DNA of 58,483 nucleotides, filler included, from Squatina squatina (lineage: Eukaryota): NCBI GenBank assembly GCA_031763465.1. It is 3 parts of 3 records of this genome, joined end to end, with 100 filler letters (N's around TTAATTAATTAA, not from the genome) between each part and the next. Parts side by side here need not be neighbours in the genome. Positions count along the whole stretch, not along the records: positions 1 to 31,321 come from JARFOE010000004.1; 2 more parts are not named here. One strand, given 5' to 3'. Below the pieces are notes generated by a model. That model was not told the DNA's origin, did no database searches, and saw nothing but the letters and a program-made list of their open reading frames with translations. The stretch's first letter is position 1. Each line of letters starts with the position of its first letter. Made by a program: the position numbers and the translations under genes. Shown piece by piece: positions 3,001-44,391 of the stretch.

Positions 3001-3300
3001 NNNNNNNNNNNNNNNNNNNNNNNNNNNNNNNNNNNNNNNNNNNNNNNNNNNNNNNNNNNNNNNNNNNNNNNNNNNNNNNNNNNNNNNNNNNNNNNNNNNN
3101 NNNNNNNNNNNNNNNNNNNNNNNNNNNNNNNNNNNNNNNNNNNNNNNNNNNNNNNNNNGAGAACGGATGATANNNNNNNNNNNNNNNNNNNNNNNNNNNN
3201 NNNNNNNNNNNNNNNNNNNNNNNNNNNNNNNNNNNNNNNNNNNNNNNNNNNNNNNNNNNNNNNNNNNNNNNNNNNNNNNNNNNNNNNNNNNNNNNNNNNN

Positions 3301-3364
3301 GAGAATGGATGATGTGTGAGAGGGGATGAAGAGAGAGAGAATGGATGATGAGAGAGTGGATGAA

Positions 3365-3393
<29 letters not shown>
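3301..3393. repeat. Purine-rich simple repeat (GAGAATGGATGAT units, then (GT)n/(GA)n)
   Basis: Directly visible; lies next to assembly gaps. Confidence 0.85.
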
Positions 3394-3395
<2 letters not shown>

Positions 3396-3580
3396 TATCT
3401 GTTAGATTCTAAGCTTTTTTTTGTTTCCTGCACAGTTGTAACCAAGTAGACTCACTGATGGAGCACTTGAAGGTTATTGAACACTTACTCAGTTAAAATA
3501 CTGCAAGGACCTCCATTTGGAGACTATGACAATGGAAAAGCAATTTCTAGCCTAGCAAAAACCAATGTTTTATTTTACAG

Positions 3581-4046
3581 GTCCCTGCTGAAATTGTTTA
3601 TGAGGAAGAAATACCACCTTATGACAATGTTACATCTACAACCAACCATGAAGATCCGCATGATGGAGTGGACGGTTACGGAAATGGAAGAGAGCAGTGG
3701 AATGACCCAAATGGGTGGACAGGAGATGAGGATGGACTAGTTGAAAATGTACAAGAAGACAGTAAAACTAAAGAGGATATCCTGTCCAATAATGTTGATC
3801 GTGATACTCGAATACTAGGAAGTTCAAATGCACTACCTTCAGCAACAGATGGACCTCATAGCAAACAGGAGGACCCAAGGAAAGAAGGCTCTCGCCCAGC
3901 CCATGATGACTACAATGCAGGCATGACCTCAGAACAAAAGAGCTTACAATCTGCTTGGAAAGATCCGGTGTCACATGAATCTGAAACATGGCACGAGCCA
4001 GCAGAGAAACAAGAGCACGTTGATGAAGTCTCAGAGTTGGAAAAGG
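3581..4046 (+). CDS. Probable internal coding exon of an unidentified host gene (acidic, low-complexity region)
   Basis: Acceptor ttttattttacag| at 3580. The frame is open from 3581 (VPAEIVYEEEIPPYDNV...DEVSELEK) and includes ORF 3668..4171. Candidate donors are AAG|gttag at 4046 and AA|gtatgg at 4089. A small upstream exon 3436-3472 (CNQVDSLMEHLK) would splice in frame. Protein not recognised. Confidence 0.45.
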
Positions 4047-6320
4047 TTAGCAATGAAAAGGAACTTAATGAGCTGCAATTGCACTATAAGTATGGAATGT
4101 TTAATTGTTGTGGTGGAGTGTTCATTAAGAATGTACAGTTGGTGCTTTTTAAAAATTGTCTATACCGTTGATTCAAACAAGTTGTGCTAAGCCTCAAAAA
4201 GCAAAATCCAATAATGCAGCAATATTGTGTAACCCATCATAACCTTATGGGAGTAAAAGAATACAATTTGGCAGGTTTGCTACTTATTAGTCGCTTCATC
4301 TTGGGTGTAGACTGAGAGAGGAATAGTTTAGTAATGTAAAATTGAAGACCAAATGGCGATCTGGTTGCGGTACATTTCAAAGAGGGGCTCAAACCTTGAA
4401 TGAGACCCGGAATTGGAATGCTGAAAGAGGCAGGTTTTACTCTATTGTTCCTAGGTTATGGGATGCAGTATTTAGTAAATAGTTAGAAAATAATTACTGT
4501 AAACATTATAAATAGTACAGAACCAATTATTAACAATACAGTTGGAACTTTATTTATTCTGTACATATCAAAATGACTGACTCATTTTATAATGGCCACT
4601 TCTAATGTTACATTACAGCATTAGATTTAAACTCTCTGTATTTTTTATGTCACTATTGACCTTTTTGCAATGCACTCTGTGAATATGCCACTTATAGAGT
4701 ACGAGTCATGATTTGGATTAGTAAANNNNNNNNNNNNNNNNNNNNNNNNNNNNNNNNNNNNNNNNNNNNNNNNNNNNNNNNNNNNNNNNNNNNNNNNNNN
4801 NNNNNNNNNNNNNNNNNNNNNNNNNTGGGTTCAGAATGTTCCAGAGGTGACCCAATGAAGAGGGATAACACCTCTGACTAGTTATGGTTGGCAGAACATT
4901 CACATTCAATGGTTGGGCCAGTTAATAGTAGCTCTAGTTATGCTATAGGTTAAGGAAATTAGAAGAACTGGCTGAAAGACCGTGGTTTACATTCCAGGCA
5001 CCAAAGGGACAGGAGAAATTCAGAAAACTGTTTGGATTTCATTTCAGGAGGTCAGCAAAGTCCAAGGGTAGGTCTTTCAGGTGCACAGACTTGGTAAGAT
5101 TTAGTAATTTCTAAAAACAAGGTGTCAGTTTATTTAGATTTCAGTAGAGATTCAGCAAATGAAATGCAGACATACAAAAAGAACTCTTATTCTGCAAAAG
5201 ATGCTATTGATTTGAATCAGTTTATAGACCTCAATGATACACATTAATCTGTTTAAAAAATGTACTTGCAAAACCCCATGGAATTAGTTCCAAATAAAAA
5301 AGTTGTACTTGAGTATTCATACACAAAGACTGATTCAGCACACGAACTGGATTAACAAGCTTGAAATTAAACAATATAATTCACTTTAGGCAAGTGCGTC
5401 AGCTATTTAGTGCTGCATTTCTGCTGTGCTTTATTCTTCCCTAGATTTTATATGGCAATAAATGAACAAATAACACAAAGCTTACTCAGATAAGTTATCC
5501 AGATTCAGTAAAATGATTCTTCTGTTTTATAAACATCTGGCCACTGCTGCTTCTTTGGTAACAGTATCAGATTTTGGTCCACCATTAATCACATTCGTAG
5601 AAATTAGTGTTAGTGTGTTTTTGTTGAATTAAGAACTTCAATGCATTAGGCTCTCACTAGAAAAAGATGAATTCACTAATCACAAAATACATGTATTAAT
5701 TCACGTCATGCTTTTTCAAGCATGTTTATTAAAATGACTCTGTGCTCTTATGTCGTTTTCAGATGGTTATAAAGATAACAAATGAGGACAGTGTCCCCTG
5801 TTCCAGACCCTAGATGAAGCATATGGTGAGTTTGAATGTTCTCAGGAAGATCTTCCATGGCTTTAAATTAAAAATTCAGAACAACACGGGGTGCTTTAAT
5901 GACTTAACTTTAGGATGCAGCAGCTGAACAACAGTCAGCTCTCCATATTTGAAGCAGGGGTGCTGATTACTGGCGGGAACTAAGCCAGCAACTGTGGAGG
6001 GAAAGGGGAAATGAGCTGTTGTCTGTGAACCCAGCACTCACAATGAATGGAGTTTAATTACCCCTGCATCAATCCAATTAACCTGCTCTGCCTGTTGGTC
6101 TTCGACTTTGAAGGGAATAGTTTACCAAGTGCATTAAATCTGTGCTCTAAAACAACAAGAACAAAATGGGGAGGGAGTACTGTCCCAAATGAAGACAGGA
6201 TGAATAGGCACTTCACACAATGCCAATTGTATATATAAAAAACTAAACTAAGTATCTAGAAATGAACAGGCCCGATAAGTTTAGAATGTTTAACGGGAGA
6301 AAGTACTGAGGGTTTGCTTA

Positions 6321-7073
6321 TTACTGTTCACTTAGACAGGCAGCTACACAGCAGTATAAGGATTTACAAATAGACTTTATTGGACAGCATAGAGTCTCCC
6401 AGAGGTTTTTTTTTGGTGGGGGGGGGCAAAGGGGGTCCCTTTTAACTACTTGGTTACTACCTACCAATGTCAACTTCAACTCCCACCTATAAGGCTCATC
6501 AGGTCCAACTGCCAGCATTTCAGTACAAACAAATACATGATGTACATAGCCCTTCGTCAATATGAAAGTTGTGGATGGAATTAATGGTAGACAACGACCA
6601 AGACCACCACTGTAGCGAGGTTCTCGCCAAATTCTATTAACCAAACCGACCCACAGCCAAGTACAGTACATTGTAGTGATGTGCTGTATGTCTCAGGGTT
6701 TGGAAATGGTTTACAGTACGACACGCTCCCATACATCTATCGCTACATACAAAGGGTCACTCCTGCTTTCTCCCCTCCACCCCATTTAGTCAGGTGAAAT
6801 GAAATGATTGGGATAGCACGGGTGAACTGGAAAAAAAGGAAGCCTAATAATACAGTCCGACTGCCTACACAACGGTTCAAAATTTGGAATCTCAAATACT
6901 TCTGAATGGCAGTGGTCTGTAACAAAGACTGCGAATCTGGACAAGCATTACCTCTCCCTCCAAAACTGATCCCTGTAAGATTCCTTGTACTGTCCCATGT
7001 TTGGCTCTGGCACACATTTAACTGGCCTGGCCCCTCGCCCATTCAATGTCTTTATTGTGTTTTTGGGTTTCAT
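6321..7073 (-). pseudogene. Orphan decayed reading frame (about 250 codons), possibly a retroviral accessory gene
   Basis: ORF 6321..6671 continues upstream in the same frame to an ATG at 7073, interrupted by four stops (TAA x3, TGA x1). It ends in a Cys-rich tail (LCCPIKSICKSLYCCVAAC). No homolog recognised. Confidence 0.3.
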
Positions 7074-7759
7074 CTCTCGCCAGCCATTTATTGTACTTTA
7101 TATGCTTTGGTTAGAATTCATTTGAGGTTGCGAAAGAGTTTGGGGGTGGGGTGGGGGAATCTTGGACACATCTCCTCTTGCCTGAGCTGGCAACTTTTCG
7201 ATCTTTGTCCCTCCATATGTTGCCCACAGCCTGTTCACAGGCACAAGAATCATTCCTTTCAGCATTTAAAAAACGTTTCCTGTCCCCCCCGCCCCTCTTA
7301 CATCCACTGAAAATTAAACATGTAGAGGACTCTGTTGTTACTCTGATATTTTTTAAATCTCCGTGTATTCTTTTTAAAACAGGAAAACTGTACTTCNNNN
7401 NNNNNNNNNNNNNNNNNNNNNNNNNNNNNNNNNNNNNNNNNNNNNNNNNNNNNNNNNNNNNNNNNNNNNNNNNNNNNNNNNNNNNNNNNNNNNNNNTTGC
7501 AGTTGTCAATTGGGAAATCTGTGGAGGGTCACCTCTGGTTCTCTTCCTCTCCCTGGTATTCTGTGCTCTCTTCTCTTGCAAAGGGGTAAGAACAGACCAA
7601 TGAGTGACTGTGGCATGTGTTCATCCGATGGATGGTGTGCATTTGGTGAGGGTGACTATGAGCAAGAGGAATGACATTGCATAAGGATGAGGGTGAGTGG
7701 GAGTGGCGGATGGATATATGGGGATGTGAGGAAGTGCATAGAAAGAGGGGGATGGGTGC

Positions 7760-8240
7760 ACCTACAAGATAACTAGGTGTGAGGAGTGATGTGATGGAGT
7801 AGGCTTGAGAAGGCAGAGTGAGGGGGTGGGGTGATGCGCACAGCAGGGTATAGGTGAATGTGCCACTGCTGTCACCTTTACTGACCTAGTTGGACCACTA
7901 AACCACTTCCTACACTGAATCCCGGAGAGTGGCACTACGCTTCTGCCACTGACCACCTCTGACACCTCCAGCCACGCCTTCTTGGTTTCAGCTGCATGCT
8001 TCTTCCTCCCGTTGCTAGGGGTATCTTTCTCCTACTCCTCACAGCCCCCAACAGCACACCAAGGGAGGCATCAGTAAAGCGGAGCGCAGCCTTTGAGCAT
8101 CTGAACACCATTGCAATACCTCCTGTTCTCTTCCTGCCAACTCCAACTCCTCCAGTTTACATCTTTGGATTGTCCCTTTAACTACTGGAGTTGAGATCGC
8201 GTCATGCGAGTCCACATCACGCTTGCTGCCGCTGATTGGA
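7760..8240 (-). mobile_element. PIF/Harbinger Myb/SANT-like gene remnant
   Basis: Minus-strand pieces across frameshifts read APLYLMP/FTDASLGVLLGAV...ETKKAWLEVSEVVSGRSVVPLSGIQCRKWF, matching the W..V...V......R...QC.K.F pattern of Harbinger Myb/SANT proteins. Confidence 0.65.
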
Positions 8241-9009
8241 CAGGGAACCCAGAAGTAAAATGATAATGAGGTGGCTGTGTTAAAAGGCCACCGATAGACG
8301 CGCTGAACAGGTTTCCCACTCGATATCGGACTCCCCCCTCTGCTCCCAGCATGTCTCCCAATTAATATCAGAGTAATTATTGGACAGAATGTCTGAATCA
8401 GTGCCCAGTACATCGGGTTGTGATCATTTTGCTGGAAATAAAAATGTTAATCGCGCTCAAGTGCTAACCAAGTAAACCAGTTACATCACAAGAGTTTTCT
8501 CCAATTTCTCCATCCTGAAAGACAAATCAATCAAAAATCGTTATAAATCTATTTTTAATGTAGCGCACTTCTAGAGTGCTATAGAGCAAATATTCATGGA
8601 GGTCGATACAAAAACCTTTTTATTTACATTTGTGCAATAAAAAAATGTGTATTCATGGATCTCAATCAACGATCCTCCATATATCATTTCATTACGAGTT
8701 ACTACATTACATCAGAAAGATCACCTCTTAGGCTCCGACAGACATGGTTGGTGTTTTGTTGCAAAGCAGATGAACATCTCCTTGTCCCAAGGTGAGTATC
8801 AGTTTGAGTTTGTCTCCTGTCCCATTTTGTGTGTAATGATCTCTAGCAGGCGATATATAATAACAGAACTATAAGCTGTGTTTGGACTTAGATGTTTTGA
8901 CAAGGAGAAGAATAATTGCAAATGATCACAGTTGAATTGCATGATGTATGTTGGAGCTATTAAGATTATGAGCCAACAAACAACTTTTGTAAACTGAATT
9001 GTCTTAAAT

Positions 9010-9412
9010 CATAGAATAGAATCATAGAATCATATAGCAGAGAAGGAGGATATTTGGCCCATTGTGCCTGTGCTGGCTCTTTGAAAGAGCTATCAAATTA
9101 GTCTCACTGCTCTGCTGTTTCCTCGTTATCCTGCAAATTTTCCCCTTCTTTTATCCAACTCCCTTTTGAAAGTGACGATTGAATCTGCTTCCACCACCTT
9201 TCAGGCCATGCATTTCAGATCATAACAACTCGCTGCATAAATTTTTTTTCCTCATGTCGCCCCTGGTTCTATTGCCAATTACTTTAAATCTGTGTCGTTT
9301 AGTTACCAACCCTTCTATCAGTTTCTCCTCACTTACTTTAACAAAACACTTCATACGTTTGAACACCTCTATTATAAGCTCCCCTTAACCTATTCTGCTC
9401 TAAGGAGAACAA
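9010..9412 (-). mobile_element. CR1 LINE 3' fragment
   Basis: catagaat tail repeats and the CR1 ORF2 C-terminal motif (gaatctgcttccaccaccctttcagg...ttaaatctgtgtc), seen many times in this window. Confidence 0.8.
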
Positions 9413-9771
9413 TATATTTCGATTAGATCACAATTTTCTTGGGTGGAGAGGCAGGCCGAATCTTGCTGGATATAGATGATGATAGCCCTCTGGTATCTCA
9501 TCCAAACAGCTATTCTTCAAGTGTAAATCTGTCCGTCATTCTTCGGAGGCTATTTGTGGGACCAGCTCAGCTGAGGTGGAACCTTTCTTCATCTAGCATG
9601 TGCATACTTTCAGGAAGGGCTGGAATATAGTAAACAAGTGCAGAACCTCTGCTTGATTTCAATCTTCTCCAGCCTAAGATTGCTACAGATAATTGTAATG
9701 CTCCACTGGCACCCATTTTGAGATTGGCTAATTTAGCACTGACAGGATTGGTTAACCTGGCACTAACAGAT

Positions 9772-9955
9772 GTCAGCCTTGGCCCAGTGGTGAAACTGTC
9801 AGCTCTGAATCAGAAGATCGTGGTACACAACACATTCCAGAGTCTAGAACACTGAAGCTAGGTTGACACTTCAATGCAACACTGAGGGAGTGCTACGGTG
9901 CCAGCTTTCTGATGAGACTTCAAATTGCCCTGTCAGGTGGATGTAAAAGATACTG
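9772..9955 (+). mobile_element. tRNA-derived SINE fragment (V-SINE/HE1-like)
   Basis: Head tgtcagccttggcccagtggt...tctgaatcagaag plus core gcaacactgagggagtgct...caggtggatgtaaaagat, shared with the copies at 22155 and 38605. Confidence 0.65.
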
Positions 9956-10569
9956 GGGGCCCAATTGGTGTGTTTTCATGCTCGAGTAGTGCCGACTAGT
10001 GGCGCTATCTGGGCGTGAAATCAACGTAGAGTGAAAAAATCATAAAATGTCTANNNNNNNNNNNNNNNNNNNNNNNNNNNNNNNNNNNNNNNNNNNNNNN
10101 NNNNNNNNNNNNNNNNNNNNNNNNNNNNNNNNNNNNNNNNNNNNNNNNNNNNNATTTAAGCATTTGTTTGTTGATGAATCAATCGAATTACTCAGTTTAA
10201 AAAAAAATGTGTGTCTTCCATTTTATCTCAGTAACAGAAATGTCTATTGGCCAGAATAGGAGTCTAAACAAAATGGTCCCGATTTTGTGGTCAACATCGA
10301 AAGAATAGCGCTTACCGGTTAAGGTCTGCTGAAGCCAGTCATGCAGCACCTTTTCCTGCAAAAGAAAGGAAAGTGTGTCAGTGAGTGTGGTGTTGTGTGT
10401 TTGGATGATGTTGCTATCATGGTTGAATAGCTGACAGTGTGTTCAAGCTGTGAAATGGGGGTGTGAGGGTTGCAGCAGTGGTATGGGGAAGCTATGATTG
10501 TGAGGTATGAGTTGTGTTTGGTAGAGATTGTTGGTAGTTGAGTGATGGGGGTGTACAGTGTTGAGCAGT

Positions 10570-10809
10570 GTGTGAGGCTAGTGTTGCAGATGATGGGATA
10601 TGGCATTTGAAGATGAATTCACTGAGCTTGACCACTCGTGAGATCATTAAACTTCTTCCTGCACTGCATCCACATCCCCAGGCTACACTGCTGGCATTGA
10701 CCACATCGGCTGTCTGCTCCCACTGCACTCTTGCCTGTTGCTTGGAAGGCTTCCTGGCCCCCTGTGAAACGAGAATCTCTCTCCTGGAGTTGATTTCCTG
10801 GACCAAGGC
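10570..10809 (-). mobile_element. PIF/Harbinger Myb/SANT-like gene remnant
   Basis: LVQEINSRREILVSQGARKPSKQQARVQWEQTADVVNASSVA, then a frameshift to WMQCRKKFNDL, the Myb/SANT signature of Harbinger elements. Confidence 0.75.
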
Positions 10810-11707
10810 NNNNNNNNNNNNNNNNNNNNNNNNNNNNNNNNNNNNNNNNNNNNNNNNNNNNNNNNNNNNNNNNNNNNNNNNNNNNNNNNNNNNNNNNNNN
10901 NNNNNNNNNGAAGATTAAAAAAAACAAAATTCTCTGTTCAGATGAAGGATAACACAGAAACCGTTAACCTTTCTCTCTCTTTCAATGGACCTGCTGTGCA
11001 TTTCTAGCAATTTTCTGTTCTAAGTGTTATGCAATATTTTTTTATGACTCATGCAATGGTGGCAGTGCATCGAGGAGACACTCAGGTCAACGAGAGACTC
11101 CTGAAGCTACAATACCATCTGATAAATGGTGCAATGGAACTCTAGCCATTCCTGACATGTTACTACCAATGGCAGAGTGCAGTGGGCATCTTTAGTTAGA
11201 TTTCAATGAACATTAAATCATTATCCTTTATGTTTACCTATAGAATGAAACACATGCATTCATATCACACCTTTCGCAGCTTCAGGACACCCAAAAGCAC
11301 TATACTGCCAATGAAGTAATTTTGAAGTGTGGTCACTGTTGTAAATGTAAGAGGTACAGGCTAGCTTTAAGTAGTGCTAGGCACTAATGATACTGTGTCG
11401 CCTATTAATTCGTGCAGACCAAGCTGCAAGCAGAAATCATGGAAATGAGCAGGCAGCATAAAGTCAGCATCCCCCCTGCAGTGCAATCAACGGGCGTGGG
11501 TCATTCGCACATCGCAATCCCTGTGCCCATTTTCGGGTGTTATCCATTTTAACTCCTCCCCCCCACCCCCGTCTTAACTTTAGAAAGAAATTGGGGGTGA
11601 TTTTAACTTCGGCTGCCAATGGGAAGGAAAATCAGGTTGGGTGTATGACGGATGGCCGATCCACAACTGCCAGTTTTACTCCTACGCTGCAATTACAAAT
11701 TACCCCC

Positions 11708-13249
11708 ATAGTGTCCCGGCAGCCCAGTCTGAAAAACTATACTTTACACTAGAACGTTAATAAAGTCGAGACAGATGTCGGCTTTTGGCATACAAATTGC
11801 ATTTCTTATGATACATTCCCCCGTTGGAGATAAGGAAACATTAATGATAGGAACATCAGATTCAGCTCAGATCAATGCGATCAGGATAGAATCTAACTAA
11901 TTGTAGACATGGAGGTTAAGATTGACTGTCTGTATAGATTGTCCATCAATATAGTTATCACCAATGCCAGGTGCAAGCAGGGCTTTGCCTACTTGCATTA
12001 ATTATCTCTTCGAACAATATCATACAGAAGTACATTACAAGATGCACCTATTAATCCATCTTGAATTGATAAAAATCCCTTTTGTCTTTTGTACTTTAGC
12101 ATTTGGTCTGGCTCGATGAGTCGGACCATAGCTCGGTCTGACAGCTGTGGAGCCAAGGGACCTAACCGCGCCGCTGGCAGGGTGCCAACGAGTACCAACG
12201 GTCCGTCAGGAATGCAGGACCTTTCAAATGGTACGAACCAAATATATATAAGCATCGTGAAAACGGTTAATAGGATTGAAAAATAACGANNNNNNNNNNN
12301 NNNNNNNNNNNNNNNNNNNNNNNNNNNNNNNNNNNNNNNNNNNNNNNNNNNNNNNNNNNNNNNNNNNNNNNNNNNNNNNNNNNNNNNNNTTCACTGACTG
12401 AGAGAGTTGATGTGTACCAACCTCGAGATGGGTGAAAGTGGGCCTCATTGGTAGGGTCCAGGCCAGGGAGTGGTTTGCATCCCTGAGGCACAATTTTTTT
12501 TTTACCAGATTGGCTTGCTTACACAGAGAGCTGAGAAGGACATGGGCAAGGATGGGAGGTTGCTGGGATCCCCACCACAGGAGGCGAGTCCCGGAGTTTC
12601 GGGATATGTGTCTATAGTAGCCATGGTGCCCACCTGCCCCATGCGAATTGGGTTCCCTCCCCAGATCCCACAAATACTAGTGCTGGGAGGCACTAGTGGC
12701 TGCAAAACCAACAATATTTGGGGCTTTAATAGTTAAGCAACTATTGATACAATCCNNNNNNNNNNTGCCATTCAAATGAGAGGTCTGTTATACACAACAT
12801 ACAGTCAGCTGTAGGGTCAGACAGAAGTACTGCTCTTGTGAAAAATGTGTCTCCCCTCCTCTGTATTTTCATGCCTCAGGAGTCCCAGAGGTCGATGCCC
12901 TACATGACTAAGTCAGCAACTGCTTGGGAGTGGACTGGACATGCATCTTCTGCAGATTGATGGGCTATGGGTATAACAGTCCAACATGTTTTAGTGGGTT
13001 ATATTTCAGTCTTATGCCATTTGGATAAATAAATTCTGGTAAGCCATGCCTTCCCGACCCATTCTTTCCTTTCTTCTCACTCTTCATGCAGCAAATATTG
13101 ATGAGGAATTCTTATGTCTAATTGTTCAGCAAGATATATTTGTCCTCAATCAATTATCCACATTGGAACAGGACACTCCTGTGGTGCAATCTGCCAAGTG
13201 ATTTATATTGGCCTGACTACTGAGAATTATGGCCAGCAGACAGCACGAC
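11708..13249 (-). pseudogene. env: Decayed retroviral envelope remnant, foamy/spuma-like
   Basis: Hand translation across stops, frameshifts and gaps gives: hydrophobic SCCLLAIILS, a basic RVRRK site, GLPEFIYPNGIRLKYNP, then a Cys/Pro-rich SU-like stretch. A furin-like KRQK(G) at 12076-12090 is followed by FLSIQDGLIGASCNVLLYDIVRRDN/LMQVGKALL...LHVYN*LDSILIAL. This is in register with the recalled foamy TM N-terminus (LRSMGYALTGAV...DENLQQGIYLL). Confidence 0.5.
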
Positions 13250-13349
13250 NNNNNNNNNNNNNNNNNNNNNNNNNNNNNNNNNNNNNNNNNNNNNNNNNNN
13301 NNNNNNNNNNNNNNNNNNNNNNNNNNNNNNNNNNNNNNNNNNNNNNNNN

Positions 13350-13704
13350 GTGAAGACAGAACCAAAGTATGTATTTAATTGGTCTGCCATTTCTTTGTTC
13401 CCCATTATAAATTCCCCTGATTCTGATTGTAAAGGGACCTACGCTTGTCTTCACTAATCTTTTTCTCTTTACATATCTATAGAAGCTTTTAGTCAGTTTT
13501 AATGTTCCCCGCAAGCTTACTCTCATACTCTATTTTCCCCCTCTTAAATCAATCTCTTTGTCCTCCTTTGCTGAACTCTAAACTGCTCCCAATCCTGAGA
13601 TTTACTGCTTTTTTTGGCCAATTTATATGTCTCCTCCTTGGATCTAATGCTCTCCCTAACTTCCCTTGTAAGCCACGGTTGAGCCACCTTTCCTGTTTTT
13701 ATTT
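13350..13704 (-). mobile_element. CR1 LINE ORF2 fragment; its 5'-truncated end abuts the proviral integrase
   Basis: KSFYRYVKRKRLVKTSVGP...IMGNKEMADQLNTYFGSVF, the typical CR1 ORF2 linker between endonuclease and RT. Confidence 0.9.
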
Positions 13705-14180
13705 TTGAACCACTCTCTGAAGGGAGCGCTAGCTAAAGCTATACAGGAGACCGGACGCGGCTGGGCGGATTTGTTGCCCAGCATACCGATGGGCCGACGG
13801 GCCCCCCGAGCAGGGCGACCGGACTGATGCCGGGCAGGGAGCAATGAGATTACCAGAGGATGTAGTAACAGGAAGCATGGAGGTGGGGCTGGTGACAAGA
13901 GAGAGAGAGGGAGAGAGGTTCGTGAAGGAGCTCTGTATGCAGTTACGTGGGTTAAAGCAGGAGGTGAAGGATCAACAAGCAATTCAGGGCATGGGAAGGG
14001 ATTGGGCGGAGGAGAAAGCCCAGGTACCAGGAGTAGGGGGAGAAGGTGATGGTGAAGATAGTACCAGCCAAAGCCGGGTTCGCCCCCCTCCACGACAAGC
14101 GGTACATGCGCATGCGTAGAGATGGGGGGACGGTGGAAACACTGGTCACAGATAAAACCCCTCACTCTGGCAGTGGAATA
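13705..14180 (+). pseudogene. pol: Integrase core end and C-terminal domain (frameshifted, small deletions)
   Basis: LNHSLKGALAKAIQETGRGWADLLPSIPMG.RA...TGL.P...GRAMRLPED matches the post-catalytic IN motif N.TLK..L.K....W...LP..L...R...TG.SP...GR.M. Then VG.KVMVK..P...F.P and CVEMGGRWKHWSQIKP* (W.H.S..K motif). Confidence 0.85.
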
Positions 14181-14207
14181 ATAAGGTCCCCTGGTGACGA
14201 TCGGGAG

Positions 14208-14227
14208 ATCTCTTCTTCTACCCACAG
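14208..14227 (+). promoter_or_regulatory. env splice acceptor
   Basis: Polypyrimidine tract plus CAG (tctcttcttctacccacag|), about 30 nt upstream of the env ATG at 14259 and just after the IN stop. Confidence 0.6.
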
Positions 14228-14258
14228 ATCGAACAGGCAGGAGCGACGTTTAGAAAGA

Positions 14259-16066
14259 ATGCGGAAGCTCGTAAGCCCCACAATCCTATAGGGATGTCTG
14301 GCAGCGATGACCTTAGGAAAAGGCACGTCTGAGGAGCGCGGAGACATCTGGTGACTGCACTACACGGATTCGAGTGACATCAGCTGCGACCAAGAGTGGG
14401 GAGCGCTAAATGTGACGGTTGATAAGCGGGTGTTCTTACATTGTAAAAGCGGTTTGTTAACATTAGCGAGCGTGGACCCAATCACTGGGGGTGCAGATGG
14501 CGCATACACCGGAGACTATTCCAATGTAGGGATGGAGAATAAGTAGGAGAATATGGCTGAGCTATGTTTCAGTAAAACGGGGGGCTGGGAAACCACTGTA
14601 GATTGCGTAACGACAAATGAGGCAAGGGTAAACTGTGACACTGGATTCACTATGTTCATGTAGAAACTGGCGTAAGAGGGGACTTGTCAATGATGTGTTG
14701 ACAGGAATAAATACGGGAACGTCGTGGTAAATTGGATAGACATCAGAGAAGTAGATAGTAAATTGCAGACCCTGAGGGGAGCCCTCAAGGGGATAAACAA
14801 GCAAGAGCAAGTGATATTGCAGAAAGGGAGCAAGGGAAGCCAGGCTCTGGCTACTTTGATTGGCGACATAGTCACGGTGCCGGAAACACACGCTCACCAC
14901 ATCAACCAGATTATCCACCAAGGCCATGCCGCCTCAAAAGGGAGCAGCTCGAAATGACCTATGCATGGCATATGGGAGCTGGATGGCAGGGGAAACTCGG
15001 GAGAATTTTAAGCTGATAAGCGAAGGTAAGATACCGAATTGGGTCAATGACACCGTCCTACGGGGGTTGGCCGAAGGAAGCCAATTGTTGAATGACTGTC
15101 AGTTGCGTGGATTGTACATACTGCCAGACCACTGTACCAGTATTAAAGGGCAGACATTGATACACTTCCTGGTGACCATACCAGCTTTACCCCAGAATGT
15201 GGGAGCGCAGAAGGTATCTAGAATAGAAAACGTAGGTGTAGAGCAAGGAGGTTATATTGTAGGATATGCACATATGCCAGAGTCTGCAGTCCAGACAGAT
15301 ACAGGGCTGATCAGCACTAGCCTAAAGGGGTGCACCAGAACACCTGCAGCCCGGGTATGTCCCCACCCAATCTACCACACTGACCAATGTGCGGATTTAA
15401 TTCCACAAAGAAGGTGAACTGCACATGGAGGCCATACCTGTCACCATGGTACCCACCAGGATGGCGCACCAGGGGCGCTGATGATACTGCATGAGTACCG
15501 CGGCTGGATACCTGGTCCACAGCGGGCAGATGTGCCCAATACAGAGGAAGGACTACTGTTTCCACCGGTCACAACCAGGGAGGGTCGGAGAAATATCCTT
15601 CAAGGTAATACGGGAACGAAAGGATGAACATTTGAACGTCACCGACAAGATAAAGGGTGACCTACTTAACTATGAGGTGCAGTTCGGTTACGAGATACCG
15701 GACCTCCCTGAACACTTCAGGGAGTTAAGACAGGCAGCCAAGAAGGTGGTCCGACTATTCTATCAGCTAGAACAACGAAGCGCAAGGCTGGAGGAAACGA
15801 CCGAGAGTATCGATGAATCGAGTTGGCGGGATGACCTATGGAACTGGGGCGTAAACTTACAGGTCCACCCCTGGATCAGGATAATATTGCATGTGCTAGT
15901 CATGATGCAGCTTATTTTAGCACTAGGATCCATATATTACACTCGCATACAATGTGGACAGTTTAAGAAGTGGAGAAGGGCACAGGAACACACAAGTATA
16001 AACGGGTATGCGCGGGTGATCAGGAAGAACGCATCAAGGAAGCATGTGCAGATAGCATCGGTGTAA
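14259..16066 (+). pseudogene. env: Envelope glycoprotein with class I F-type layout (decayed: several stops and frameshifts)
   Basis: Signal peptide MRKLVSPTIL*GCLAAMTLG. About 140-aa N-terminal subunit, then furin-type RNWRKR| at 14662-14679 and fusion peptide GLVNDVLTGINTGTS/VVNWID. Heptad-like IREVDSKLQTLRGALKGIN, GKIPNWVNDTVL, a Cys-rich region, a second helix (LRQAAKKVVRLFYQLEQRSARLEETTESI), Trp-rich SWRDDLWNW, TM IILHVLVMMQLILALGSIYY and a basic tail. Confidence 0.85.
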
Positions 16067-16186
16067 ATGGGACATGAACCTGAACTTGGGGACTTGCTGC
16101 CAGTCACCAGGGGAGGGGAAATGTCTCAGACATTACCGATGCCCAGAGCAGTTAGGTTGGCAACCCTGGGTGATTGCCAGGGAGCC

Positions 16187-16199
16187 AAAAGGGGGAAGC
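16187..16199 (+). promoter_or_regulatory. Polypurine tract (plus-strand primer)
   Basis: AAAAGGGGGAAGC immediately before the LTR-initial TG at 16200. Confidence 0.8.
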
Positions 16200-16796
16200 T
16201 GTAGTAGCCATGATGGGGCAAGCAAGTTAAGAAAGAGTTACTAAGTTATGCAAGCCTTGACAAAGCCTTAGCAACCACAGGTAATAAGATAGCAGGGGGA
16301 GGGAGGGGCTCCCTGCCTGACAGCAGCTGTGCTCAAAAGACAAGGGAGCGGAAGTGCAGGTATAAATATGCAGAAACTAGCTGTGGCCTAAAGACAGGTA
16401 ATCAGGCCAGGATGTCCTTGGGCATTCAGTAAGTGAGGTGCGAAATGGGTTCGTTACCGGCCTATAGACAGGTAATCAGGCCAGGATGTCCTTGCACATT
16501 CAGTGATTAACGTGCAAGACAAGAGCCCGATAGTAGCAGAGCAGGATGTGAGGAGCCACGTACCTCTTGTACAAAAAAAATGAGGTAATGAATCAAATAA
16601 GGAAGAAGCATCGTGTCACAAACCCTACAGGAGCATCCCATGTATAACAGCTTGTGTATAAGTGTAGAGGCACGTGCTCTGTAAGTTTAGAACTTCTCGG
16701 GAGACTATTCCAAGGGTTCTCCCTGCTCGAGCTTGAAATAAATGCATTGAAGCCGAAGATCGAGTCATATCTTAATTTGGAAAGATGTTCCCTACA
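16200..16796 (+). repeat. 3' LTR (597 bp)
   Basis: Terminal inverted repeat TGTAG...CTACA; 74-bp-period direct repeat in U3 (16385 and 16459); TATA-like TATAAG near 16657; AATAAA at 16737-16742. Confidence 0.8.
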
Positions 16797-18469
16797 AAAG
16801 TCGGGACTGGTTCTGCTGGGGCCCAATAATGCAAAGACAATCAATGTAACATGGCCTCTGCTGTGTTTTCCTGCTGTTGTCACTGTTCAACCCCAGGAGA
16901 CATGAGCCCAGTCATCAAGCATTTTACGGTGGGTGATGGGGGCCTAGAATTCTTTGGGAACCCAGAGCCTGGGCCAGCACTCAAGGAAATTTGCATTGCA
17001 CAGGCCAAAGAAAGGCTTTTTGTGCAGAGAGAAAGAGAGACAGCACGACTGGAGGCAGTCCACAACCTGATATGAATACATTCATGGCTGAATTTTCCAC
17101 CTAATTTTTTCATAACATTCTCCCAGTAGATTGTGTGCCTTGTCTTAGAAAAAGTCAGAGCTAATAACCATAACTACCCCATTCCTGCCATTAAAAACAC
17201 ATTTATTTTGCCAAAGCATCTTTCTCTTTATGCTGGGTAATAAAGTTGAATAGATTTAATGGATTAACAATTGTGAATTATCATTTTTCATGACCAGAAT
17301 GTTATATTAAATACTTAATTATTCATTGCTAATGCTTGTCGTGGTGAAATATAATTTCCTGTAATTCAGAATACATCAGATGTGGCTTTTCTTCTTTGAG
17401 GTTAATGGACAAGCCCTTAAAACCATTAATGTTTCTAAATATGTCACCTCGTATGTCACAATTTCCTTTGTGAACTAAAGCAATGAAAGAAGCTCAACCT
17501 TTGCAGGCATCTGCAGAGGTCAATGTGGCGTATTGACATTTAACTTGTCTGTAAGGCAAGGCTTCCAAAGGTGACATGAAAGGTTTTGAACGGACACCTC
17601 AAATAGCACATTCAAATACATGTGTAGTTAGATTGAGTCTGTATTTATGCATTAACAATACTGCTTATATTAGCTATATATTCCGATTTAAGAATAATAA
17701 ATGTGTCCAATTTTAATCAACATACTTAATCCAGCATGCCTGGCAGAACCTGGATGCACAGGAAGTTAAAATCGGGGCACCGACTTACCTTTCAGATTCC
17801 GCTACCTTCCCACAGGATCTAATTTTAACCTGCTGTTTTGTGCAGGCAATCAGGGCATCTGCCAGAGGCAGCGGAGTCCTGATTCAAGTATGGAAGCCGG
17901 CTTCCTATGACGACAAATGGATCCGGTGCTAGGGGAGAACAGGAAAGTAAGTTATTTTTTTTGTCTCCTTGTGGGCTAGAAGGAGCAAGAGCGCTCAATC
18001 CATTGACATCCGTTGTCGAGGCTGAAAGGAAGAGAGCCAAGAAGTGAAAAGCTGAAATGAAAGGAACCCCAGTGTAGAAGTATGAGTCTGCAACCAAAGG
18101 TAAAGCAATCTGGGGCCACAGGGCCACAACTCTGGCACAACATCTGATCCTCTGTTTGCTGGCTGTTTAAGTGGAGTTGGCTCCTCACAAGGTGTTTATG
18201 AGGAAGATAGGCCTGTTCGCCATTTCACCTCACCCTCTGCATGCCAGCAAGGAAGTGGAGACGGGTTTCAGGATGCGGCTGACCATTACTGTCNNNNNNN
18301 NNNNNNNNNNNNNNNNNNNNNNNNNNNNNNNNNNNNNNNNNNNNNNNNNNNNNNNNNNNNNNNNNNNNNNNNNNNNNNNNNNNNNNNNNNNNNATTTTAT
18401 AGTTTCATTAGAAACAATGCCTACTTCCTCCTCTGTAACATTAATAACTTTTGACTTTGCCTAAATGCA

Positions 18470-19939: not shown

Positions 19940-20172
19940 ACTCTCTTGGTGATATTTTAAATTGATGAGGGTTCATAAATTTAAAATATCACCAAGAGAG
20001 TGAGGAGAGGGGTTGTGAGAAATTTCTTTACACAGAGAGTTGTTGGAGCATTGAATGCTTTACCACAAAGAATAGTTGTGGCAGATAACATTGCATGTTT
20101 TAATGGAAAAGTGGATAAATATTTCAAGCAGAGGAAAGCACAGGGCTTTCAGGAGAGTGTGGAGCAGGGTGA
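19940..20172 (+). mobile_element. CR1 LINE 3' fragment
   Basis: VRRGVVRNFFTQRVVGALNALPQRIVVADNIACFNGKVDKYF is the CR1 ORF2 C-terminus. Confidence 0.85.
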
Positions 20173-22154
20173 CTGCTTCTATGCTGTAAGCTTCCATAGC
20201 TCTGTTTCTACTTGTTTTGCTAGCTGGAATTCATGTAACATTAGAGATACAAATGTTCAAACAAAGTCGCCCGGGGTATTGAAATTTCGCTTTTGATGCT
20301 TCTGTGAGTTGACAAGAGGAAGAATCGGAAAACATTTAATGCTATTTTCATTTCACTATGGTAACTGTACTGGGCAATGCTGATAATTTCCAGCTCTGTG
20401 GGTCATTGTCAATGCTGTGGATTTTTCCCTAATAACAAGAAGGAAGAGTTAATATTCTGCTCCAGNNNNNNNNNNTTGTGCTGAATGAACAGTGTTCTGC
20501 ATCATTGCTCCTGTGTCCTTCTATTCACAAGTTTAAATGAAGGCCTCAATTATGTTGTGTGAAAGATCTGGACTTGTTCGGTGGTGCCATAGCCTTTTTT
20601 GTGCTCTTAGACACTGCCAGGATCAACCTTGTTAGACAGCTACCCTCACTATAATTGCCTGTAGCTGCACCCTGTTGCTGTGTCATCCAATGTTCAAGAA
20701 ATCTACTGGAATTCCTTTGCTTCCAGTTGGGACAAAAACAAATCCATATTGAACATCAGAAGCTAATTTCTCCACTGGGTTTTTGGCTNNNNNNNNNNNN
20801 NNNNNNNNNNNNNNNNNNNNNNNNNNNNNNNNNNNNNNNNNNNNNNNNNNNNNNNNNNNNNNNNNNNNNNNNNNNNNNNNNNNNNNNNGACAACAATATG
20901 AATTTCCCACCAAATGAGTCATTTCAAGTTTTTGAATAAAGCTACCTAGAATAATAAACTAATTGAATTCCATCAGGTTCTGGCTGTGTATTATCTAGCA
21001 CTATAATCTATTACTGTACGTTAAGTATTTCAATGTAGTGCAACCATCATGCTAACGTATGAATTGGGTTTTTCTTGGGAGCAAGCTCACAATATTTTTT
21101 CTAGTTTTCTCCTCTTTCTTTCCTCTCCTCCTCAAATCTTGTTGGAGTAAAATTCCACAGGCACCGTCAGCCTTCCAGTACCTCACTCAAGCAGCTGTTG
21201 GTCACGCGTGAATCTAAACAGCGAGTACCGCAGACATTTAATTTGTGAGGCCCAGCCTGGTTCTGTCCTTACCTGATATCCGTTCGCAAGCACTTTCCTT
21301 CAGGATAGTGATCGAGTGGAGGAACTCTGGCTGGATTTTGCCATCTGTAACCCAGGGAGGCTGAAATGAATTGCTGTGTCTCAATTGTTACTCCAGCTCA
21401 GACCACCTAACTGATCACCAAATCTAAGATTGAAGGAGTAATCTTCACCATCTGTATGGCTTTATATCACATCATGTTTATTCACTGAGGCACAGGATAA
21501 TCAACTGGTCCTAATTAGCATTTACAGAAATTGTTTCATAAATCAAATAAAATACAGTCAAATTCCTACAATACATGTAACTGAGTCCTTATTCTTATGT
21601 TCCATATAGAGCACATAGCTGAGATATAGAGAGATCAGTCATTTTATAGCAAGTACTGGTTAGCCTGATTTATATGGCGAGCATAAAATGACATTTAACA
21701 GACTGATGAGAGTTCAGGAGACGCATGATTACCCAGTCTGGCTCACATTTAACTCACAAAAACAACATCCTTACAATTAAATGGCAAAGCATATGGACTT
21801 GGATTGTTTAACAGACTGAAGTAAAGAACAAAGAAAACACAAAGAAAAAACAAAGAGAATGCTGCCAGCAAGTCTGAGCAAGACTGACAACTACCGATGC
21901 CGTGCACTGTTATTAGCTGAGTTACTGATTGTCTAACAACTTTACACACTTATCAAGACAATTCACCAAGAAAGTGTATACAGATGCGCACTTTAATACT
22001 AAAATTATAACTTCAATAACAGAAGTACAAGACTCTAACTACTTAGGAATATGTTTTGCACAGTTTTTTGATCGGGAATTGCAGAAAACTTGGAGGTAAA
22101 TCAAAACTACCATTTTTTATTATTTTTTGTGCTGCTCCATGTTTTCCTCCTTAG

Positions 22155-30659: not shown

Positions 30660-31102
30660 TCCCCGATTTTCATCGCTCCACCATTGGCTGCCGTGCCTTC
30701 AGCTGCCCAGGCCCTAAGCCCCGGAATTCCCTCCCTAAACCTCTCCGTCTCTCTACCACTCCCTCTCCTATATTCGGACGCTCCTTAAAGGCATTTGATA
30801 TTAAAGGCATCAGGGAATACGGGGCTAGTGCAGAAAAATGGCGTTGAGGTAGAAGACCAGCCATGATCTAGTTGAATGGCGGAGGAGGCTCGAGGGGCCG
30901 AATGGCCTACTCCTTATCTTATTTCTTACGTTCTTATGTTATGTCCTTAAAACCTACCTCTTTGACCAAGCTTTTAGTCACCTGTCCTAATATTTCCTTA
31001 TGTAGCTTGGTGCCAAATGTTGTTTGCTAATGCTCCCGGGAAGTGCCTTGGGGATGTTTCGCTATGCTAAAGGTGCCATATAAATGCAAGTTGTTGTTGT
31101 TG
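30660..31102 (+). mobile_element. L2-like 3' tail interrupted by a CR1 3' end (about 30790-30940)
   Basis: The host element ...ctccttaa resumes as ccttaaaacctacctc... after the CR1 terminus ggctcgaggggccgaatggcctactcc...ttcttatgtt. Confidence 0.75.
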
Positions 31103-31321: not shown

Positions 31322-31421
31322 NNNNNNNNNNNNNNNNNNNNNNNNNNNNNNNNNNNNNNNNNNNNTTAATTAATTAANNNNNNNNNNNNNNNNNNNNNNN
31401 NNNNNNNNNNNNNNNNNNNNN
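31322..31421. other. Artificial scaffold-concatenation linker (N44-TTAATTAATTAA-N44)
   Basis: Palindromic six-frame stop linker at 31366-31377 inside an N run; identical copy at 44607-44618. Confidence 0.97.
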
Positions 31422-35317: not shown

Positions 35318-35955
35318 AGAGTCACAGAGTCATTACGGCACAGAAGGAGGGCAATCGCCCCATCGAATCCATGTTGGCTCTCTGTAGAGCAATCCAGTCA
35401 GTCCCATTCCCCACTTTATTCCCTGTAGCCCTGCGAGTTTATTTCCCTCAAGTGTCTATCCAGTTTCCTTTTGAAATAATTGATCGTCTCCGCTTCCACC
35501 ACTCTCACAGGCAGCGAGTTCCAGGTCATCACCACTCGCTGCGTAAAAAGGTTCTTCCTCACATCCCCCCTGTATCTCTTGCCCAAAACCTTAAATCTGT
35601 GTCCCCCAGTCCTTGTACCATCAGCTAATGGGAACAGCTTTTTCTATCTACCTTATCCAAACCTGTCATAATCTTGCAGACCTCTATCAAATCTCCCCTC
35701 AACCTTCTTTGCTTCTTCGCACAAAGTTTAGTGGAAGTCTGGAACTCTTCCCCCGACCCCACACCCCAAAAAAAAGATATTGAGCCAGGGGGTCAATTGA
35801 AAATTTCCCAACTCAGAGGGATAGATTTATGTTAGGTTAGGGTATTAAGGGTTACGGAACCAAGTTGGGTGGATGGAGTTAACAGACAGACCAGCCAGGA
35901 TCTAATTGAATGGCGGAACAGGCTCGAGGGGCTGAATGGCCACTTGCTGGTCCTA
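35318..35955. mobile_element. Two CR1 3' fragments in opposite orientation
   Basis: Minus-strand CR1 ORF2 end at 35318-35715, joined to a plus-strand CR1 end ending in ggctcgaggggctgaatggcc. Confidence 0.8.
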
Positions 35956-38227: not shown

Positions 38228-38572
38228 CGGAGAAAGGGATGTGAGCCAGGTTGCTCTGGAACTTGTAGAGTGCGTGCTCGGTAGTGGAGGGCTGGCAGAC
38301 CTGGGCCAGCCCATGGAAGTCGAACTTGTAGGCGTAGCGCTTGCCGTGGACTTTGGTCATGATGTTCTTGTCGTAGTAGTAGCGCAGCGCTCGGCTCAAC
38401 TTGTCGTAGTTCATGTTGGGCTTGCTCTTCCTTTCGCCCCACCGCCTGGCCACCTCATCCGGGTCGGTGAGCTTGAACTCTCCGTTCGTTCCTTCCCAAG
38501 CGATGCAGTTGACGTTACAGCTGTCGGAGAGCAGCTCTAAGAGGAACTGCCACAGCTGGATCTGTCCGCTGC
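38228..38572 (-). CDS. FEV: FEV (Pet-1) ETS transcription factor, last coding exon (3' end lost in gap)
   Basis: Acceptor cctcgtag| then [115 protein letters not shown]. The post-ETS tail [18 protein letters not shown] is FEV-type, not ERG/FLI1. Confidence 0.93.
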
Positions 38573-38604
38573 CTACGAGGATAAATTAACTCAGTTAAAA
38601 AGGA

Positions 38605-43855: not shown

Positions 43856-44391
43856 AGAAACATAGNNNNNNNNNNNNNNNNNNNNNNNNNNNNNNNNNNN
43901 NNNNNNNNNNNNNNNNNNNNNNNNNNNNNNNNNNNNNNNNNNNNNNNNNNNNNNNNNNNNNNNNNGGGTAATGTAGGAAATTCTGTATTTTATTTATGAA
44001 AAAATAGCCAAATGTTTATGTATGTGGAAAAGTAACTTTTATAAAGTGAGGAGGGAAATCAGGAAGCATTTTTTCATACAAAGGGTAGTGAAAATGTAGA
44101 ACTCTATAGGCTGTGGATGGGCTGGGCCAATTGAACTTTTCAAGACTGCAATCAATAGATTTTTGTTCGGTAAGGGCATAGAGGAATGTGAAAAAATGGC
44201 AGGTGAATGAAGTTGAGGTACAATGATCTCGTGATCTAACAGAATGGCGGAACAGGCTCGAGGGGCTGTATGACCTACTCCTGTTCCTACGTTCTTTGCA
44301 TCTGTATTCTATGGTACATTTAGTATCTGTATGGAATTCTGGCTGTGTTTGCTGAGAACTGATTGTAATCTCACATGAATTGCAATTTAAG

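What the first reader, a model, noticed from the sequence alone, without database searches (positions are those of the whole stretch)
13705..16796. Lokiretrovirus-like provirus (retroviral IN + F-type envelope + LTR) in an apparent shark genome
Seen: a gap-free run of integrase C-terminus, env, PPT and a TGTAG...CTACA LTR. Known: ordinary retroviral Env is cleaved late, into a long SU and a short TM. Lokiretroviruses, described as a sister lineage of sampled retroviruses, instead carry an Env resembling Mononegavirales (paramyxo/pneumovirus) F proteins. As I recall, they were reported from lampreys, bony fishes, amphibians and reptiles, not cartilaginous fish. Inference: this is a chondrichthyan member or a new sister family, which would extend the host range. 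RT is not in the window, so the lineage cannot be fixed from this sequence alone.
Basis: partly seen in the sequence, partly recalled or inferred. Interest (0 to 1): 0.9.

Follow-up and report, generated by a model that had tools for sequence, protein, structure and literature searches.

The report
Dead shark provirus with F-type envelope
This is the broken rear end of an endogenous retrovirus, probably in a shark genome, whose envelope gene belongs to a family found across sharks and skates that is predicted to fold like the fusion protein of measles-type viruses; that it is a lokiretrovirus is untested, and one intact relative that is 85-88% identical in three shark genera may be a viral gene kept by the host.

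Summary
The anatomy is real: integrase tail (13705-14181), broken env (14259-16066), polypurine tract (16187-16198) and one 597-bp TGTAG...CTACA LTR (16200-16796), cut at the 5' end by a CR1-like LINE. The env's last ORF has 14 relatives among 1.84 billion proteins; all 11 named ones are chondrichthyan (6 genera). A model of one relative matches measles, RSV, hMPV and foamy-virus fusion proteins (best Foldseek E 9e-6; low-confidence model). No gamma-type ISD or CX6CC. So 'F-type envelope' is supported. 'Lokiretrovirus' is not shown: F-type Env also occurs in foamy viruses and errantiviruses, no loki Env was among the named hits, the short pre-cleavage part is probably a deletion in this copy, RT is absent, and the integrase remnant fits loki, SnRV-like and epsilon-like integrases about equally. 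Best reading: a dead copy of a chondrichthyan ERV lineage with its own F-type env family and an unplaced pol. Side result: an intact 739-754 aa member is 85-88% identical in Chiloscyllium, Scyliorhinus and Heterodontus, a candidate domesticated F-type env that published syncytin screens would filter out.

The parts
13350..13708 (-). CR1-like LINE ORF2 fragment that abuts and truncates the provirus; runs into an assembly gap at 13250-13349
   Evidence: Translations; CR1 label recalled from the motif pattern, no Pfam hit
13705..14181 (+). 3' end of pol: last helices of the integrase core, linker and C-terminal domain, frameshifted, GPY/F motif missing; stop at 14179-14181
   Evidence: Three-frame translation; compared by eye with published integrases; no Pfam or PDB hit
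14259..14679 (+). env, pre-cleavage part (about 140 codons): signal-peptide-like start, Cys-containing variable segment, basic site W-R-K-R; 3 stops in 14259-14654; lacks the F2-type segment of relatives
14680..16066 (+). env, post-cleavage F1-type subunit (about 460 codons): fusion-peptide-like start, heptad repeat 1, Cys-rich beta region, heptad repeat 2, Trp-rich membrane-proximal stretch, membrane helix, tail; broken by frame changes and 2 adjacent stops
   Evidence: Profile hits E 1e-27, 4e-8, 1e-52; tblastn; fold of relative P0017
16187..16198 (+). polypurine tract (12 purines), one base before the LTR
   Evidence: Sequence
16200..16796 (+). 3' LTR, 597 bp, 5-bp terminal inverted repeat TGTAG/CTACA, TATAAA 16361, AATAAA 16737
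   Evidence: no second copy in the window
16385..16515 (+). two 57-bp direct repeats (88% alike) inside the LTR, likely U3 enhancer repeats
   Evidence: role inferred

Best explanation
This is a dead, 5'-truncated endogenous retrovirus copy, probably in a shark, whose env belongs to a chondrichthyan-wide family predicted to be class I fusion proteins of the paramyxovirus-F type, and whose pol most likely came from a fish-type retroviral lineage (epsilon-like or SnRV-like) rather than from the described lokiretroviruses. In the live virus Env would have been made with a signal peptide, cut by a furin-type protease at the basic site, and would have driven membrane fusion by refolding heptad repeats 1 and 2 into a hairpin, with the variable N-terminal part as the likely receptor-binding module (all inferred from homology). 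After integration the copy decayed (shown: stops, frame changes), probably lost its F2-type segment and the integrase GPY/F motif by deletion (inferred), and was split inside integrase by a CR1-like insertion; the rest lies in an assembly gap or is gone. It cannot make a working protein.
For: Order IN tail-env-PPT-LTR with 78 nt between pol stop and env ATG and 133 nt between env stop and LTR. 14 relatives at E<=0.001, 22-39% identical; 11 of 14 named, all chondrichthyan: Heptranchias, Heterodontus, Chiloscyllium, Pristiophorus, Rhinoraja, Scyliorhinus. Model of relative P0017: 20 PDB matches at E<=0.001, every one listed is a class I F-type protein (measles F 9.3e-6, RSV F 8.8e-5, hMPV, PIV5, CDV, foamy Env 9.4e-4); second look ranks F proteins in the first five rows, Z 5.4-5.8. 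No CX6CC or ISD motif in the window's three env frames or in 8 of 8 relatives tested. Integrase tail read by eye: 16 residues from the place of the missing GPY/F segment to the W-x-H motif and a 14-residue V...P stretch, the same spacing as epsilon-like CmiERV scaffold 324, against 24 and 18 in Loki-Bsp and 22 and 15 in SnRV-like CmiERV scaffold 2; the S-P-x-x-Y-x-I motif of the latter two is absent. Env/pol swapping is common in anamniote ERVs (bioRxiv 2021.11.23.469661, abstract and parts 1-2).
Against: The fold rests on a relative (25-29% identical to window pieces), not on the window's own broken protein, and the model is poor (pLDDT 53.7, pTM 0.27, TM-scores about 0.2); the wide structural search gave only coiled coils, best Z 6.4. 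No PF00523 hit for window pieces or relatives; the profile match to a paramyxovirus F sequence is E 0.12-0.17. The integrase comparison is by eye on about 130 decayed codons: the core helix matches loki, SnRV-like and epsilon-like sequences at 10, 10 and 11 of 33 positions, the linker length (about 38) is nearer loki and SnRV-like (41) than epsilon-like (32), and the last motif (W-K-H-W-S-Q-I-K) shares 5 of 8 with Loki-Bsp against 4 of 8 with the other two; a deletion could also fake the short spacing. Both published CmiERVs compared carry gamma-type env, so no published element links this env to a known pol. The host is inferred from the relatives' hosts only.
Confidence: 0.55

Rival explanations
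1. It is a true lokiretrovirus, or a sister of the loki/Odin clade, in a cartilaginous fish.
For: Env order SP, basic site, fusion peptide, coiled coil, Cys-rich region, TM as in loki Env (PMC7947760); by eye the family shares the general F-type pattern of Loki-Bsp Env; env about 600 codons, no accessory gene before the LTR; integrase motifs R-A-x-P-x-R-A-T-G and W-x-H-x-x-Q-I-K resemble Loki-Bsp. Only 6 chondrichthyan genomes were screened.
Against: None of the 11 named relatives is from a loki host group, though whether loki Env is in that library was not checked. The family's long heptad repeat 2 and Trp-rich H-P-W stretch are not seen in Loki-Bsp, and 'HPW' occurs in the held supplement text only in two gammaretroviral RT rows (file cut, line breaks could hide hits). 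Relatives have 270-320 residues before the cleavage site against about 118 in Loki-Bsp. Integrase C-terminal spacing differs (see best explanation).
Confidence: 0.25
2. It is an env-carrying Ty3/gypsy element (errantivirus-like) rather than a retrovirus proper.
For: F-type env is widespread in metazoan Ty3/gypsy elements; weak Baculo_F hits, E 0.024 for the window ORF and 0.0011 for P0002, both under the cut-off; ESM Atlas neighbours at 0.91 are arthropod F-like clusters (below the tool's recognition threshold); the R-A-T-G integrase motif is also common in gypsy elements (recalled).
Against: That survey found no intact vertebrate ERV homologous to the invertebrate elements (passage); no named invertebrate protein among the 14 hits; integrase tail is short with no chromodomain-sized extension.
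Confidence: 0.1
3. It is a foamy-like ERV of a cartilaginous fish.
For: Foamy Env shares the F core and is among the structural matches (E 9.4e-4); foamy-like ERVs are reported from sharks (PMC5512871 passages; PMC10699275; PMC9972966 title only).
Against: No room for accessory genes (133 nt before the LTR); no foamy Env Pfam or PDB sequence hit; by eye the integrase end of catshark ERV-Spuma.0-Sca is unlike this one (text with cropped lines); foamy Env ranks below measles, RSV and hMPV F.
Confidence: 0.1

Closest known systems
Lokiretroviruses (Wang and Han 2020, PMC7947760; parts 1-2 of 4 of the text, supplement rows and part 11 of 76 read)
   Same: pol-env-LTR layout without accessory gene; Env with signal peptide, basic cleavage site, fusion peptide, coiled coil, TM and F-type core; several integrase motifs
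   Different: Env family has only chondrichthyan named members; longer pre-cleavage part in relatives, longer HR2 and Trp-rich membrane-proximal stretch; no PF00523 hit; shorter integrase C-terminal domain; RT untested; 0 of 6 chondrichthyan genomes were positive in that paper
Paramyxo-/pneumovirus F proteins (measles 8utf, RSV 3rrr, hMPV 5l1x, PIV5 4gip) and foamy virus Env (8rm1; PMC11468914, passages read)
   Same: Predicted fold and order of elements of the post-cleavage subunit
   Different: 9-17% identity; encoded in a provirus; relatives carry an extra N-terminal, possibly Ig-like, part instead of a separate attachment protein or the foamy receptor-binding insert
Elephant shark CmiERV lineages I (SnRV-like) and II (epsilon-like) (Han 2015, PMC4422223; part 1 of 2 of the text, Dataset 1 parts 1-2 of 3 read)
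   Same: Chondrichthyan ERVs; integrase tails share motifs (lineage I) or spacing (lineage II) by eye
   Different: Both carry gamma-type env with an ISD; different LTR ends
Syncytin-like env of chondrichthyans (bioRxiv 10.64898/2026.05.06.723177, parts 1-3 of 4 read; PMC12813294, passages read)
   Same: Endogenous env genes in sharks, some intact and conserved
   Different: The preprint required ISD and CX6-7C motifs, which this family lacks; its conservation case is between two Squalus species, not across genera of different orders

Membership tests
Lokiretrovirus | RT groups in the lokiretrovirus clade, sister to other retroviruses | not testable with these tools
   RT absent from the window (no Pfam hit upstream); no genome held; no linked loci found
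Lokiretrovirus | gag-pol-env flanked by two LTRs | tested here: inconclusive
   Only pol end, env and one LTR are present; 5' side cut by a LINE and a gap
Lokiretrovirus | Tether plus second RNase H domain | not testable with these tools
   Region absent
Lokiretrovirus | Env with signal peptide, RXKR-type site, fusion peptide, coiled coil and TM | tested here: met
   the window's site reads W-R-K-R, relatives have RTKR, RHRR, RRKR; feature is not exclusive to loki
Lokiretrovirus | Env similar to Mononegavirales F (PF00523) | tested here: inconclusive
   No PF00523 hit; profile to F sequences E 0.12-0.17; fold match for a relative E 9e-6
Lokiretrovirus | Integrase of the loki/CGIN1 type | tested here: inconclusive
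   By eye against one loki sequence and two CmiERVs: mixed signal; the paper's integrase data sets are beyond the held part of the supplement
Gamma-type Env (gamma/epsilon-like ERVs, syncytins) | ISD and CX6CC motif in a short TM subunit | tested here: not met
   Absent from the three env frames and from 8 of 8 relatives tested; post-cleavage subunit about 460 codons
Foamy(-like) viruses | Accessory gene(s) between env and 3' LTR | tested here: not met
   133 nt between env stop and LTR; a deletion cannot be excluded
Foamy(-like) viruses | Env with F-type core | tested here: met
   Foldseek match of relative P0017 to 8rm1, E 9.4e-4; not exclusive
Foamy(-like) viruses | RT/Pol in the spuma clade | not testable with these tools
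   RT absent
Epsilon-like (class I) or SnRV-like (class III) ERV backbone | RT/IN phylogeny | tested here: inconclusive
   Integrase C-terminal spacing equals that of epsilon-like CmiERV 324, some motifs fit SnRV-like CmiERV 2; no tree possible
Errantivirus-like Ty3/gypsy | Ty3/gypsy RT and integrase with F-type env | tested here: inconclusive
   Sub-threshold Baculo_F hits; no named invertebrate relative; RT absent

The most novel reading that the evidence does not exclude
The window's env marks an undescribed chondrichthyan-wide family of F-type retroviral envelopes, distinct from loki and foamy Env, and one member was captured by the ancestor of horn, carpet and ground sharks and kept intact as a host gene: a syncytin-like capture of an F-type fusogen that ISD-based screens cannot see.
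Probability: 0.45. Interest if true: 0.8.

Novelty: new variant of a known kind. Interest (0 to 1): 0.55.

Why it matters
If the pol proves epsilon- or SnRV-like, F-type envelopes are spread over several retroviral branches and are swapped between them, which supports an F-type fusogen as an old retroviral envelope and removes it as a lineage marker. If it proves loki-like, the host range of lokiretroviruses extends to cartilaginous fish, where a screen of 6 genomes found none. Either answer follows from one RT tree of full-length copies. The intact, conserved relative (XP_072333160.1, XP_067889054.1, GCC29952.1) gives a direct test of whether sharks domesticated an F-type fusogen; a 36-species syncytin screen required motifs that this family lacks. 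The copy in this window is itself dead and ordinary.

Tried and rejected
Own-genome search: no genome held. Word-index protein searches with two env pieces, 'longer' lengths: 0 hits among 342 and 370 candidates, weak evidence only. Third search with alignment A1: 2 hits among the 8000 candidates scored. Sequencing runs: none was listed. Viral contigs: alignment too divergent to search; with P0017, 5 pattern matches, none confirmed. Metagenome contigs: 80 pattern matches, none confirmed. ESM Atlas: best 0.91 for the last ORF, below the recognition threshold, and 0.77 for the middle piece. First model (P0013, pLDDT 47.8): no PDB match at E<=0.001 (best hMPV F 4.6e-3, foamy Env 5.8e-3); in BFVD 3 matches at E<=0.001, all chu-like glycoproteins, then walleye dermal sarcoma virus Env at 7e-3 and WEHV1 Env at 0.045, leads only. 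Wide VIA search: coiled coils only. Pre-cleavage part against 5 relatives in 3 frames (15 comparisons): no match to the F2-type segment; three hits at 4-6 of 500 shuffles are one 15-20 residue off-frame match to the three near-identical proteins, treated as chance; a by-eye Ig-like resemblance to P0012 was not significant (234 of 500). hhalign of A3 with the X-read frame 14259-14954 aligned only 34 columns of HR1. Tree of the C-terminal region (15 of 18 rows; P0007 kept, P0009 dropped as a part of P0017, P0012 and P0014 dropped as too short): the window has no supported sister. No Pfam domain in six frames of 1-13712 (long X-rich queries lower sensitivity, no positive control), no tRNA or Rfam hit, no tandem array. 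Target-site duplication, PBS and LTR-pair age: not testable, 5' LTR absent. Ten paper searches found no description of lokiretroviruses or of an F-type env family in sharks; PMC9972966 (cartilaginous fish foamy virus) is not held, Repbase and Dfam could not be checked, and bioRxiv supplements were not seen.
Full report
OBSERVATION. The stretch is free of gaps (no N from 13350 to 18293). Reading 5' to 3' on the plus strand: an integrase-like tail from about 13705 to a stop at 14179-14181; an env from ATG 14259 to the stop at 16064-16066; a 12-purine tract at 16187-16198; and an LTR of 597 bp from TGTAG at 16200 to CTACA at 16796, with TATAAA at 16361, AATAAA at 16737 and a 57-bp internal repeat. 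The internal part is richer in GC (51.5%) and purines (60%) than the flanks (41-43%, 48%). No second LTR or other copy lies in the window. Upstream, a LINE ORF2-like fragment on the minus strand (CR1 label recalled) meets the integrase at about 13705-13708 and runs into a 100-N gap; six frames of 1-13712 gave no Pfam domain.

STATE OF THE COPY. Env is spread over all three frames. Five frame stretches were counted and hold 3, 0, 0, 0 and 2 stops; at least four frame changes separate them. The integrase tail also changes frame and lacks its GPY/F motif. The copy is dead.

THE ENV FAMILY. Pfam gave only a sub-threshold Baculo_F hit (E 0.024), and two word-index searches found nothing. A full phmmer search of 1.84 billion representatives with the last ORF (193 aa) gave 14 proteins at E<=0.001, 22-39% identical. 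Eleven of 14 carry names, all chondrichthyan: Heptranchias perlo, Heterodontus francisci (3), Chiloscyllium punctatum (3), Pristiophorus japonicus (2), Rhinoraja longicauda and Scyliorhinus torazame; three are unnamed. A profile from 7 relatives, without window rows, recovers 14671-15988 of the window in three pieces (E 1e-27, 4e-8, 1e-52). In a tree of the C-terminal region (15 of 18 rows) the window has no supported sister and at most 38% identity to any row, so it is a separate lineage of a diverse family. This is also the only evidence here that the host is a cartilaginous fish; an ETS-domain exon (E 1e-35) shows an animal gene nearby.

FOLD. No ISD or CX6CC motif occurs in the window's env frames or in 8 of 8 relatives tested, and the post-cleavage subunit is about 460 codons, so the env is not gamma-type. 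A model of relative P0017 (448 aa, the post-cleavage subunit; pLDDT 53.7, pTM 0.27) has 20 PDB matches at E<=0.001; those listed are measles F (9.3e-6), RSV F, hMPV F, PIV5 F, CDV F and foamy-virus Env (9.4e-4). A second aligner puts F proteins in the first five rows at Z 5.4-5.8, level with unrelated fibronectin-type domains just below; the wide search returned coiled coils only. Profile searches of PDB sequences align the Cys-rich region to paramyxovirus F at E 0.12-0.17. The F-type call is therefore well supported in rank and consistency but rests on a low-confidence model of a relative.

WHY THIS IS NOT YET A LOKIRETROVIRUS. Wang and Han (PMC7947760; parts 1-2 of 4) define the group by RT phylogeny, a tether domain and an F-like Env, and found 0 positives in 6 chondrichthyan genomes (supplement rows). 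But foamy Env shares the F core (PMC11468914, passages), as do many errantivirus Envs (bioRxiv 2023.10.26.564294, outline and passages), so the env type does not fix the lineage. The early cleavage that looked loki-like (about codon 140; about 118 in Loki-Bsp) is suspect: relatives cleave at 271-322 and share an F2-type segment just before the site (P0012 against P0013, score 81), which none of the window's three frames matches. An F protein needs that segment (established), so a deletion in this copy is the likely cause. By eye Loki-Bsp Env shares the general F pattern but not the family's long HR2 and Trp-rich membrane-proximal stretch. The integrase remnant was compared by eye with one loki sequence, SnRV-like CmiERV scaffold 2, epsilon-like CmiERV scaffold 324 and foamy-like ERV-Spuma.0-Sca. 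The core helix matches the first three at 10, 10 and 11 of 33 positions; C-terminal spacing equals the epsilon-like one; linker length and the final motif lean to loki or SnRV-like; the foamy-like one is unlike it. These counts have no statistics behind them. Lineage odds: fish-type retroviral backbone 0.55, loki or sister 0.25, Ty3/gypsy 0.10, foamy-like 0.10.

MECHANISM. Shown: gene order, termini, breaks, family membership. Predicted: class I F-type fold. Inferred: signal peptide, furin-type cleavage, hairpin refolding, receptor binding by the variable N-terminal part (UniRef calls P0013 'Ig-like domain-containing'; weak antibody matches E 0.05-0.9 at its residues 68-145), integration, decay, LINE insertion.

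SIDE RESULT. P0013 (C. punctatum, 739 aa), P0015 (S. torazame, 754 aa) and P0016 (H. francisci, 754 aa) are full-length members with basic cleavage site, 19 Cys each and a TM. They are 85%, 85% and 88% identical, P0013 and P0015 align over 734 residues with no gap, they form a 100/100 clade with short tips on a long stem, and each was seen on one contig. The three genera belong to three orders that split on the order of 200 million years ago (recalled). This pattern suggests one domesticated gene; recent cross-species spread of an active virus is the alternative. Synteny, dN/dS and expression were not testable. The chondrichthyan syncytin screen (bioRxiv 10.64898/2026.05.06.723177, parts 1-3 of 4) required ISD and CX6-7C motifs; a second survey of 40 chondrichthyans used TM-subunit queries in the manner of syncytin searches (PMC12813294, passages).

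PRIOR DESCRIPTION. Ten searches found no paper that reports lokiretroviruses or an F-type env family in sharks. Also read: PMC12440569, PMC10435555, PMC5512871, PMC8227577, PMC12583693, PMC11521997, PMC11089739 (passages), PMC10699275 (parts 1-2 of 4, supplement part 16 of 20), PMC4422223 (part 1 of 2, Dataset 1 parts 1-2 of 3), bioRxiv 2021.11.23.469661 (outline, parts 1-2 of 6). PMC9972966 and Calcraft et al. 2024 were seen only as reference entries; they, the cut part of the loki supplement, bioRxiv supplements and repeat databases may bear on novelty. Earlier AI notes of this scan report F-type env ERVs in other shark-type genomes, one on a class I pol; these are unchecked leads, and none matched this sequence.

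VERDICT. Real feature; F-type env supported; lokiretrovirus label open and less likely than not. New variant of a known kind; interest 0.55, carried mainly by the undescribed env family and its candidate domesticated member, not by this dead copy.

Noticed in passing
proteins P0013, P0015, P0016 (GCC29952.1, XP_072333160.1, XP_067889054.1); not in the window: Intact 739-754 aa F-type env, 85-88% identical in Chiloscyllium, Scyliorhinus and Heterodontus, no gaps between P0013 and P0015; candidate domesticated envelope gene.
   Followed up: partly
proteins P0002 and P0008: Gene models in which pieces of this env family are joined to host genes (fbxo15 isoform in Heterodontus, cadherin-related family member 5-like in Pristiophorus); either annotation artefacts or exonised env pieces.
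   Followed up: no
window 38229-38585 (-): Exon encoding an ETS domain (Pfam E 1e-35), FEV-like by recall; about 21 kb from the LTR and facing it.
   Followed up: partly
window 3551-4168 (+): 206-codon acidic open frame, probably a host exon; no Pfam hit.
   Followed up: no
window 55264-55623 (-): 120-codon Pro/Thr-rich open frame, possibly a host exon on the same strand as the ETS exon.
   Followed up: no
window 30855-30940, 35889-35974, 44223-44308, 46937-47022, 53135-53220: Five copies of an 86-nt repeat (family D2) that looks like a CR1 LINE/SINE 3' end (recalled); other CR1-like ORF2 fragments at 19985-20293 and 46917-47216.
   Followed up: no
window 31322-31421 and 44563-44662: Two identical gap fillers of 44 N, a 12-base TTAA-type palindrome and 44 N; an assembly artefact, not biology.
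   Followed up: no
BFVD search: Walleye dermal sarcoma virus and WEHV1 Env appear among weak matches (E 0.007, 0.045) to the low-confidence model, a hint that exogenous epsilonretrovirus Env may also be F-type.
   Followed up: no
PMC4422223 Dataset 1, CmiERV scaffold 2: By eye, the integrase of this published SnRV-like shark ERV shares many motifs with Loki-Bsp integrase while its env is gamma-type.
   Followed up: no
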